A DNA stretch of 64,000 nucleotides from a virus (taxonomy: Duplodnaviria; Heunggongvirae; Uroviricota; Caudoviricetes), in the IMG/VR virus record IMGVR_UViG_2617271072_000004, positions 1 to 64,000 of that record. One strand, written 5' to 3'. The translations under genes were made by a program, and so were the position numbers. This document shows, piece after piece, positions 29,354 through 30,214 of the stretch (position 1 is its first letter; the number at the start of each line of letters is the position of its first letter). The notes below the pieces were generated by a model that had not been told where the DNA came from, did no database searches, and saw only the letters and a program-made list of their open reading frames with translations.

Positions 29354-30214
29354 ATGAGTATTCAACATTTTCGTGTCGCCCTTATTCCCTTTTTTGCGGC
29401 ATTTTGCCTTCCTGTTTTTGCTCACCCAGAAACGCTGGTGAAAGTAAAAGATGCTGAAGATCAGTTGGGTGCACGAGTGGGTTACATCGAACTGGATCTC
29501 AACAGCGGTAAGATCCTTGAGAGTTTTCGCCCCGAAGAACGTTTTCCAATGATGAGCACTTTTAAAGTTCTGCTATGTGGTGCGGTATTATCCCGTGTTG
29601 ACGCCGGGCAAGAGCAACTCGGTCGCCGCATACACTATTCTCAGAATGACTTGGTTGAGTACTCACCAGTCACAGAAAAGCATCTTACGGATGGCATGAC
29701 AGTAAGAGAATTATGCAGTGCTGCCATAACCATGAGTGATAACACTGCTGCCAACTTACTTCTGACAACGATCGGAGGACCGAAGGAGCTAACCGCTTTT
29801 TTGCACAACATGGGGGATCATGTAACTCGCCTTGATCGTTGGGAACCGGAGCTGAATGAAGCCATACCAAACGACGAGCGTGACACCACGATGCCTGCAG
29901 CAATGGCAACAACGTTGCGCAAACTATTAACTGGCGAACTACTTACTCTAGCTTCCCGGCAACAATTAATAGACTGGATGGAGGCGGATAAAGTTGCAGG
30001 ACCACTTCTGCGCTCGGCCCTTCCGGCTGGCTGGTTTATTGCTGATAAATCTGGAGCCGGTGAGCGTGGGTCTAGCGGTATCATTGCAGCACTGGGGCCA
30101 GATGGTAAGCCCTCCCGTATCGTAGTTATCTACACGACGGGGAGTCAGGCAACTATGGATGAACGAAATAGACAGATCGCTGAGATAGGTGCCTCACTGA
30201 TTAAGCATTGGTAA
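29354..30214 (+). CDS. blaTEM: TEM class A beta-lactamase with R244S (Ambler)
   Basis: 286 aa TEM sequence; codon 30074-30076 is AGC where TEM-1 has CGC; Q39, E104, R164, G238, M69, N276 as TEM-1. Confidence 0.95.

What the first reader, a model, noticed from the sequence alone, without database searches (positions are those of the whole stretch)
29354..30214. blaTEM carries the inhibitor-resistance substitution R244S
The beta-lactamase matches TEM-1 as I recall it, except codon 30074-30076 AGC (Ser) where TEM-1 has CGC (Arg) at Ambler 244. R244S is the substitution of inhibitor-resistant TEM-30/IRT-2. The sequence errors seen elsewhere in this window are indels, not substitutions, so this is likely real. 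An inhibitor-resistant TEM on a transducing phage-plasmid is clinically relevant.
Basis: partly seen in the sequence, partly recalled or inferred. Interest (0 to 1): 0.65.

Follow-up and report, generated by a model that had tools for sequence, protein, structure and literature searches.

The report
Known inhibitor-resistant blaTEM-30 on P1-like phage-plasmid
The gene is an exact copy of the long-known inhibitor-resistant beta-lactamase TEM-30 and the change looks real, so the allele is ordinary; what has not been seen elsewhere is its home on a P1-type phage-plasmid and a 9-base deletion upstream that may raise its expression.

Summary
ORF 29354-30214 (+) is blaTEM, and codon 30074-30076 is AGC (Ser) where blaTEM-1b has CGC (Arg244). 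This is the only difference from blaTEM-1b (CDS nt 721 C>A). The protein is what NCBI names TEM-30. The DNA is 861/861 identical to 16 plasmid records annotated blaTEM-30, including reference AJ437107. The mature protein is 263/263 identical to PDB 1LHY.

The change is very probably real. The assembly's errors are single-base indels in homopolymer runs. Private substitutions are rare (2 in 3.5 kb alongside; none other in the 2.9-kb transposon remnant).

The gene sits in a truncated, immobile Tn2 remnant (one inverted repeat, about one third of tnpA). The remnant lies between c8/cre and a truncated ref gene of a P1-like phage-plasmid, a recurrent insertion area. No TEM-30 in a P1-like context turned up in the records examined.

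An unexpected extra is a 9-bp deletion (Sutcliffe 31-39) covering the site of the known Pa/Pb promoter-up mutation. It is unique in every collection searched and is predicted to create a strong promoter (TTGAAG-17-TACGAT).

Verdict: a known allele in a new context, of modest interest. The promoter deletion is the only potentially new element, and it is unproven.

The parts
29354..30214 (+). blaTEM-30 coding sequence (286 aa, blaTEM-1b silent-site framework: T226, T436, T604)
   Evidence: (NCBIfam blaTEM 665 bits, cutoff 625)
30074..30076 (+). Codon 241 (Ambler 244) AGC = Ser. blaTEM-1b has CGC = Arg. The single C>A change is at 30074.
29284..29312 (+). Native weak P3 promoter, unchanged (-35 TTCAAA 29284-29289, -10 GACAAT 29307-29312; Sutcliffe 141 and 162 are wild type)
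   Evidence: promoter names from PMC6476967 and PMC12484619
29184..29185 (+). Junction of a 9-bp deletion (CCTATTTTT, Sutcliffe 31-39) that includes position 32, the site of the Pa/Pb promoter-up mutation. The tnpR stop codon (29178-29180) is intact.
   Evidence: absent from all other records
29158..29205 (+). Predicted new promoters created by the deletion: TTGAAG (29158-29163), 17 nt, TACGAT (29181-29186); and GTGATA (29177-29182), 17 nt, GATAAT (29200-29205)
   Evidence: rough PWM (prediction only)
28623..29180 (+). tnpR resolvase of Tn2, intact (185 aa)
28493..28493 (+). Extra T in a T-run of the res region (T5 to T6), absent from every other Tn2 copy compared. Probably a homopolymer consensus error.
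27469..28458 (-). Truncated tnpA (about the N-terminal 330 codons). The open frame runs on into ref sequence and stops at 27427.
   Evidence: matches profile positions 2-314 of 954; 297.7 bits, below the cutoff of 500
27460..27468 (.). Left junction: 9-bp microhomology GAGCGCCAA shared by ref and tnpA. This is the scar of one deletion that removed IRL, about 2 kb of tnpA and 469 bp of P1 DNA.
30324..30361 (+). The only 38-bp Tn2 inverted repeat present (IRR). P1 backbone resumes at 30362.
27179..27468 (-). Truncated ref gene (the 5' 271 nt and its operator are lost)
30409..31804 (-). c8 and cre of the P1 backbone, each broken by single-base homopolymer indels (30557, 31074, 31363, 31696). These are taken as assembly errors.

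Best explanation
The window carries a genuine blaTEM-30 (IRT-2), which is blaTEM-1b with a single C>A change making Arg244 into Ser. From established enzymology and the TEM-30 crystal structure, loss of the Arg244 guanidinium removes the group and ordered water that position clavulanate's carboxylate and promote its conversion into the species that irreversibly inactivates the enzyme. The enzyme therefore resists clavulanate, at the cost of lower activity on penicillins and cephalosporins. The gene sits in a Tn2 that inserted between c8 and ref of a P1-like phage-plasmid. That Tn2 then lost IRL, two thirds of tnpA and 469 bp of P1 DNA in one microhomology-mediated deletion, so bla is now a fixed part of the phage genome. 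It would spread vertically as a low-copy plasmid and horizontally by phage infection and lysogenic conversion. A 9-bp deletion 170 bp upstream of the start codon is inferred to create a strong promoter. This would offset the low gene dosage of a P1-type replicon and the weaker TEM-30 enzyme. Shown here: allele identity, gene context, both junctions and the error profile. Inferred: the resistance phenotype, the promoter effect and phage infectivity.
For: Allele: exact protein named TEM-30; 861/861 nt identical to 16 blaTEM-30 records including AJ437107; 263/263 aa identical to PDB 1LHY; one nucleotide from blaTEM-1b; NCBIfam blaTEM above its cutoff. Reality of the change: indels are homopolymer +/-1; only 2 private substitutions in 3.5 kb alongside; no other substitution in the 2.9-kb Tn2 remnant. 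With a substitution error rate of at most about 6e-4 per base, the chance of hitting exactly this base with exactly this change is at most about 2e-4. The observed TEM-30 frequency among the 5000 best-scoring blaTEM-bearing plasmid records counted is about 3e-3. Context. Five other P1-family elements carry Tn2-type insertions in or near ref, each at a different site. Pfeifer et al. list the Ref family as a neighbour of resistance insertions and showed a P1-like element converting new hosts (PMC9600943). Phenotype of R244S: raised amoxicillin-clavulanate resistance, with more susceptibility to cephalosporins and to piperacillin-tazobactam (PMC8399295). Promoter: a new consensus-like site is present in the window but not in an intact copy. 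A rough PWM that recovers P3, C32T, G162T and position 141 scores the new site at P4 level. Only 0.55% of small deletions in this region score as high. At least 9 of 15 other TEM-30 loci carry known strong-promoter variants.
Against: No reads are available, so a consensus error or mis-polishing cannot be formally excluded. The assembly is visibly imperfect: cre and c8 are broken, and there is an extra T at 28493. The 9-bp deletion is seen in no other record, which fits either a novel mutation or an artefact. The PWM uses hexamer frequencies recalled from memory, the analysis is post hoc, and the Pa/Pb hexamer assignment could not be checked against the original paper. No sibling element with the same junction was found, so it cannot be said whether R244S arose in place or arrived with the transposon. 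The TEM-30 loci are not independent samples.
Confidence: 0.9

Rival explanations
1. The gene is really blaTEM-1b, and the A at 30074 is a consensus (substitution) error of an error-prone long-read assembly.
For: The assembly has many uncorrected errors, with about 17 homopolymer indels in about 45 kb, four of them breaking c8 and cre within 1.2 kb of bla. Every other P1-family element examined carries Arg at codon 241, i.e. TEM-1 or, in L005, an unnamed variant.
Against: The errors are of a different type (homopolymer length). Substitutions private to the window are 2 in 3.5 kb next door and none elsewhere in the Tn2 remnant. The base is not in a homopolymer or in a GATC or CCWGG methylation motif. 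A random substitution would have to hit one specific base of 64,000 with one specific change that happens to give a clinically selected allele. A second rare change pointing to the same selection, the promoter-region deletion, lies 890 bp away.
Confidence: 0.04
2. TEM-30 is real in the strain but sits on another Tn2 copy elsewhere in the genome. Repeat collapse or cross-mapping during polishing transferred the base, and perhaps the deletion, onto the phage-plasmid copy.
For: Tn2 is commonly multi-copy; the median is 2 matching places per E. coli genome and the maximum is 36. TEM-30 is normally found on conjugative plasmids, ICEs or chromosomes.
Against: Both junctions of the remnant with P1 DNA are clean and unique, and the remnant is only 2.9 kb, which long reads span easily. 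Nothing in the window suggests a collapsed repeat. This rival cannot be tested without reads.
Confidence: 0.03
3. TEM-30 is real, but the 9-bp upstream deletion is either an assembly artefact or a neutral mutation. bla is then expressed only from the weak P3 promoter, giving low-level resistance from a low-copy replicon.
For: The deletion is unique to this imperfect assembly. It removes one arm and the loop of a small hairpin (CCTAT-TTTT-ATAGG) that includes a T5 run, a place where slippage or miscalling is conceivable. Four of 15 other TEM-30 loci have plain P3. The simple consensus scan finds about one promoter-like site per shuffled region by chance.
Against: All the other indel errors that break genes or depart from otherwise invariant Tn2 sequence are 1 base long. 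The deletion covers exactly the known promoter-up position 32 and gives optimal 17-nt spacing for two hexamer pairs. Only 0.55% of possible small deletions in this region score as well.
Confidence: 0.5

Closest known systems
TEM-30 (IRT-2), reference blaTEM-30 AJ437107 / WP_021561477.1 / PDB 1LHY
   Same: Identical at every one of 861 nucleotides and 286 residues. Same blaTEM-1b silent-site framework as the Tn2-borne copies on pGABEEC10_1, pGENOMIC23-002-C and pMDR31.
   Different: The upstream region carries a 9-bp deletion (Sutcliffe 31-39) seen in no other copy. The host replicon is a P1-like phage-plasmid, whereas the copies examined elsewhere sit on IncI, IncF, ICE or chromosomal contexts.
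Phage P7 (AF503408) and other P1-like phage-plasmids carrying Tn2/Tn3 with blaTEM-1 in or near ref
   Same: Same backbone family, same transposon type and the same general insertion area around ref. bla differs by one nucleotide.
   Different: P7 has a complete transposon in the 3' end of ref, in the opposite orientation, and encodes TEM-1. The window has a one-ended remnant between c8 and ref encoding TEM-30. All six insertion sites are different, so these were independent events.
Strong blaTEM promoters Pa/Pb (C32T), P4 (G162T) and the deletion-derived Pc/Pd type
   Same: The window's change affects the same position as Pa/Pb. It is predicted to use the same -35 (TTGAAG) with a -10 formed at the same place. 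Like Pc/Pd it is a deletion and not a point change (PMC6476967, PMC12484619).
   Different: It is a 9-bp deletion that does not match any of the five known blaTEM promoter types named in PMC12484619. The predicted -10 is TACGAT where C32T gives TACGCT. No expression data exist.

Membership tests
TEM family class A beta-lactamase | Scores above the curated cutoff of the family model | tested here: met
   NCBIfam NF000531 blaTEM: 665 bits against a cutoff of 625, full length 1-286
TEM family class A beta-lactamase | Catalytic motifs Ser70-x-x-Lys73, Ser130-Asp-Asn, Glu166 and Lys234-Ser-Gly are intact | tested here: met
   The translation reads [20 protein letters not shown] and ADKSGAG. It is identical to TEM-1 at all positions except 244.
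TEM-30 / IRT-2 allele | Exact amino-acid identity to the reference allele (allele names are assigned by exact match) | tested here: met
   The exact-sequence lookup returns the NCBI name TEM-30. 16 records annotated blaTEM-30 are 100% identical in DNA. 263/263 identical to PDB 1LHY.
TEM-30 / IRT-2 allele | R244S is the sole substitution relative to TEM-1 (no change at M69, S130, R275, N276 or at ESBL positions) | tested here: met
   One nucleotide difference, CDS nt 721, from blaTEM-1b in six loci
TEM-30 / IRT-2 allele | Inhibitor-resistant (2br) phenotype: raised amoxicillin-clavulanate MIC, cephalosporins still active | not testable with these tools
   Phenotype taken from the literature on R244S (PMC8399295). 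It needs MIC testing of a lysogen.
Tn2 (Tn3-family) transposon as a mobile unit | Two 38-bp terminal inverted repeats | tested here: not met
   Only IRR at 30324-30361 is present; no reverse-complement copy exists anywhere in the window
Tn2 (Tn3-family) transposon as a mobile unit | Intact tnpA transposase | tested here: not met
   Only Tn positions 2038-4950 are present. The TnpA fragment matches profile positions 2-314 of 954 and scores below the cutoff.
Tn2 (Tn3-family) transposon as a mobile unit | tnpR-res-bla module of the Tn2 sequence type | tested here: met
   Identical to Tn2 copies in L003, L004, L009 and L024 apart from the changes listed
P1-like phage-plasmid (Punavirus) | P1 backbone genes in P1 order (darB, lxc, mat, ref, c8, cre, loxP, c1, pacAB and others) | tested here: met
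   94-99% identity and synteny with P7, SJ46, RCS47 and many P1-like plasmids
P1-like phage-plasmid (Punavirus) | Inducible, infectious and able to lysogenise new hosts | not testable with these tools
   Only 64 kb is seen, and broken genes are probably assembly errors. A related P1-like element was shown to be functional (PMC9600943).
Pa/Pb strong blaTEM promoter | C-to-T change at Sutcliffe position 32 | tested here: not met
   Position 32 is deleted and not substituted
Pa/Pb strong blaTEM promoter | Higher bla transcription than P3 | not testable with these tools
   Only a prediction: PWM score 11.7 against 8.2 for P3 and 10.1 for C32T

The most novel reading that the evidence does not exclude
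The 9-bp deletion (Sutcliffe 31-39) is a real, previously undescribed promoter-up allele of blaTEM. It would be functionally equivalent to Pa/Pb or P4. It would have been co-selected with R244S under amoxicillin-clavulanate pressure because a unit-copy P1-type replicon gives too little of the catalytically weaker TEM-30 enzyme from P3. The element would then be a phage that confers clinically relevant inhibitor resistance on every host it lysogenises.
Probability: 0.35. Interest if true: 0.45.

Novelty: already known. Interest (0 to 1): 0.3.

Why it matters
TEM-30 defeats clavulanate, so amoxicillin-clavulanate fails against strains that make enough of it. Finding it fixed in the genome of a P1-like phage-plasmid means it can move by phage infection without conjugation, into strains that lack conjugative plasmids. 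Annotation pipelines that label the backbone as 'phage' may overlook it. This is an epidemiological point and not a new mechanism. P1-like elements are already known to carry TEM-1, SHV-2, CTX-M and other resistance genes, and TEM-30 has been known for decades. The upstream 9-bp deletion, if real and active, would add one more entry to the short list of blaTEM promoter variants used for genotype-to-phenotype prediction of co-amoxiclav resistance.

Tried and rejected
(1) Is the window simply phage P7, the classic ampicillin-resistance P1 relative? No. P7's transposon is complete, sits in the 3' end of ref in the opposite orientation and encodes TEM-1. Backbone identity is only about 94-97%.

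(2) Is the insertion shared with other P1-like plasmids, which would allow a TEM-1 sibling comparison? No. All IRR flanks differ.

(3) Finding the source or a second copy. The Tn/P1 junction and the deletion junction gave zero exact matches in viral contigs, and the deletion junction also gave zero in the genome and metagenome contig collections. No record in the phage, plasmid or E. coli collections covers the region.

(4) TEM-30 on viral contigs. The 32-mer gave 0 hits in IMG/VR and 0 in metagenome contigs. The one hit in species-representative genomes was a Neisseria contig of another framework.

(5) Are the ~115-kb TEM-30 plasmids P1-like? The one ~115-kb plasmid examined (pEc-050-TEM-30) is IncI-gamma/K1. 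The other three TEM-30 records fetched are an IncI-type colicin Ia plasmid, an IncFII plasmid and a ColV-type F plasmid.

(6) Are the anomalies clustered around bla, which would suggest a locally bad region? Homopolymer indels occur throughout the window, so this was rejected.

(7) The original promoter papers (Lartigue 2002) were not held, so the hexamer assignment rests on my own analysis.

(8) Literature search for TEM-30 together with phage-plasmid found no paper, and TEM-30 is absent from the supplement of the main survey.

Full report
**Observation.** Window 29354-30214 (+) is a 286-codon ORF. Codon 241 of the precursor (Ambler 244) lies at 30074-30076 and reads AGC. Compared with blaTEM-1b in phage P7 and five other P1-family loci, the window's gene differs at one nucleotide only, CDS nt 721 (A here, C there). 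The catalytic motifs are intact, and the protein scores 665 bits against the NCBIfam blaTEM model, whose cutoff is 625.

**Allele identity.** An exact-sequence lookup returns NCBI's name 'inhibitor-resistant broad-spectrum class A beta-lactamase TEM-30'. The DNA is 861/861 identical to 16 PLSDB records annotated blaTEM-30, including the reference AJ437107. The mature protein is 263/263 identical to the crystallised TEM-30, PDB 1LHY. In mutagenesis work, all R244 mutants raised amoxicillin-clavulanate resistance. They also increased susceptibility to cephalosporins, to ampicillin-sulbactam and to piperacillin-tazobactam, because activity on the partner penicillins drops (PMC8399295). The structural explanation, loss of the Arg244-held water needed for clavulanate's inactivation chemistry, comes from Wang, Minasov and Shoichet 2002. 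That paper is cited within PMC8399295 and I use it as established knowledge.

**Is the base real?** The assembly is imperfect. Against the closest backbone relative (pATCC10729_02, CP148988, about 98.9% identical) there are about 17 single-base length changes in A/T homopolymers over about 45 kb. Four of them break c8 and cre. These errors are spread across the window and are not clustered at bla.
- Substitutions are another matter. In a five-way alignment of the 3.5 kb next to the transposon, the window has 2 private substitutions, against 6-101 for the finished references.
- In the 2.9-kb Tn2 remnant, the only base substitution relative to many Tn2 copies is the one at 30074.
- The base is not in a homopolymer or in a Dam or Dcm motif.
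- With a substitution error rate of at most about 6e-4 per base, the chance of this exact change is at most about 2e-4. TEM-30 makes up about 3e-3 of the 5000 best-scoring blaTEM-bearing plasmid records counted. The odds are at least about 15:1, and probably much higher, that the change is real.
- Without reads, two things cannot be excluded: a consensus error (I put it at about 4%) and transfer of the base from another Tn2 copy during polishing (about 3%).

**Context.** The backbone is a P1-like phage-plasmid: darB, lxc, mat, ref, c8, cre, loxP, c1 and pacAB in P1 order, with 94-99% identity to P7, SJ46, RCS47 and many 'IncY/p0111'-type plasmids.
- bla lies in a remnant of Tn2 at window 27469-30361, corresponding to transposon positions about 2046-4950. 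The remnant holds about 330 N-terminal codons of tnpA, an intact tnpR, bla and the right inverted repeat (30324-30361). No second inverted repeat exists in the window.
- The right end abuts the c8-ref intergenic region. The left end is a junction between tnpA and ref across a 9-bp microhomology (GAGCGCCAA, 27460-27468).
- The simplest history is insertion of a complete Tn2, followed by one deletion that removed IRL, about 2 kb of tnpA and 469 bp of P1 DNA (the ref operator and the first 271 nt of ref). The resistance gene can no longer transpose and is a fixed part of the phage genome.
- P7 and four other P1-like plasmids also carry Tn2-type elements in or beside ref, each at a different site. 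Pfeifer et al. list the Ref family among the neighbours of resistance insertions in P1-like elements (PMC9600943). This is a known permissive region.

**Has TEM-30 been seen on such an element?**
- In the records examined, TEM-30 sits on IncI-gamma/K1, IncI-type, IncFII and ColV-type F plasmids, on ICE-like elements, and in Tn7- or Tn21-associated and chromosomal sites. None is P1-like.
- The TEM-30 32-mer is absent from IMG/VR.
- No paper in the held library combines TEM-30 with phage-plasmids, and the main survey's supplement lists no TEM-30.
- The combination therefore appears to be a new instance. It is not a surprising one, because P1-like elements are well known to carry TEM-1, SHV-2, CTX-M-55 and other resistance genes, and one has been shown to convert new hosts (PMC9600943; PMC9603915).

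**An unexpected extra: the upstream deletion.** Nine bases (CCTATTTTT, Sutcliffe 31-39) are missing between 29184 and 29185, four bases after the tnpR stop codon.
- Position 32 is the site of C32T, which creates the strong Pa/Pb promoters (PMC6476967; PMC12484619).
- The deletion was found in none of 2826 E. coli records with blaTEM. Its junction has no exact match in the viral, genome or metagenome contig collections.
- A consensus scan finds a promoter-like site (GTGATA-17-GATAAT) in the window that an intact copy lacks.
- I built a rough sigma-70 weight matrix, with hexamer frequencies recalled from published compilations, so it is approximate. It ranks P3 as the best wild-type site (8.2). 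It assigns C32T a new site, TTGAAG-17-TACGCT (10.1), and scores G162T/P4 at 11.7. It also flags position 141. These serve as positive controls.
- For the window's allele the matrix gives TTGAAG-17-TACGAT (11.7) plus the second site (9.1). Only 12 of 2185 possible 1-15-bp deletions in this 208-bp region score as high.
- Among 15 other TEM-30 loci, 5 have C32T, 3 have G162T, 1 has the large upstream deletion and 2 have other truncated or replaced upstream regions. Only 4 have plain P3. By comparison, about 15% of linked promoters carried C32T in a TEM-1 survey (PMC12484619).
- These loci are not independent samples, but the pattern fits the accepted view that weaker inhibitor-resistant enzymes need strong promoters. 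Gene copy number is a main driver of co-amoxiclav MIC (PMC12484619), and P1 prophages are unit-copy plasmids (my knowledge), so selection for a promoter-up change here is plausible.
- Two cautions apply. The deletion could still be an artefact, because it removes one arm and the loop of a small hairpin containing a T5 run. No expression data exist. I put the promoter interpretation at roughly even odds.

**Recurrent origin.** R244S occurs on at least three silent-site frameworks of blaTEM and on different Tn1/2/3 backgrounds. The allele has therefore arisen repeatedly. Whether it arose in place on this phage-plasmid or arrived with the transposon cannot be decided, because no sibling with the same junction was found.

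**Verdict.** The allele is exactly known and widespread, so novelty is low. The context (a P1-like phage-plasmid and a one-ended Tn2 remnant) is a new instance of a known kind. The only potentially new element is the 9-bp promoter-region deletion, which needs read-level confirmation and an expression test.

Noticed in passing
window 29184-29185 (and 29158-29205): A 9-bp deletion (Sutcliffe 31-39) upstream of bla removes the Pa/Pb position 32. It is unique in all collections searched and is predicted to create TTGAAG-17-TACGAT and GTGATA-17-GATAAT promoters.
   Followed up: yes
window 30557, 31074, 31363, 31696 (c8 and cre); also 14009, 16701, 17639, 47043, 49523, 51084, 52629, 53575, 56160, 56214, 57098, 61831, 62872: Single-base (rarely 2-3 base) length changes in A/T (one C/G) homopolymers relative to close relatives. 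Four of them break c8 and cre. This is the signature of an unpolished long-read consensus, so apparent pseudogenes in this window should not be trusted.
   Followed up: yes
window 27460-27468: The tnpA/ref junction lies in a 9-bp microhomology (GAGCGCCAA). One deletion removed IRL, about 2 kb of tnpA and 469 bp of P1 DNA including the ref operator.
   Followed up: yes
window 11765-13220 (-), within 10980-13372: A 2.4-kb segment absent from the closest relative encodes an HD-domain plus HD_assoc (dGTPase-like) protein, split into two overlapping ORFs, probably by an assembly frameshift. It could be an accessory nucleotide-depletion or defence-type gene.
   Followed up: partly
window 28493: An extra T (T5 to T6) in the res region between tnpA and tnpR, absent from every other Tn2 copy compared. 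Probably a consensus error.
   Followed up: partly
loci L007-L010 and L014-L024 (TEM-30 copies elsewhere): Of 15 TEM-30 loci, 5 carry C32T, 3 carry G162T, 1 has a large upstream deletion and 2 have truncated or replaced upstream regions. Only 4 have plain P3. R244S occurs on at least three silent-site frameworks, so it has arisen repeatedly.
   Followed up: partly
L005:3969-4829 (NZ_CP169228.1, P1-like plasmid, poultry E. coli): An unnamed TEM variant (annotated only as 'TEM family class A beta-lactamase') differs from blaTEM-1b at CDS nt 349 (A where the others have G). It sits on another P1-like plasmid beside a truncated ref.
   Followed up: no
window 25157-26477: Where P1 and P7 carry their type III restriction-modification genes, between lxc and mat, this element has only a DUF2971 gene (25210-26250), as does its closest relative.
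   Followed up: partly
window 14817 and 56160: A 6-bp deletion in a short tandem repeat (CAGGCG/AAGGCG) and a 3-base longer A-run relative to CP148988. It is unclear whether these are real variation or errors.
   Followed up: no
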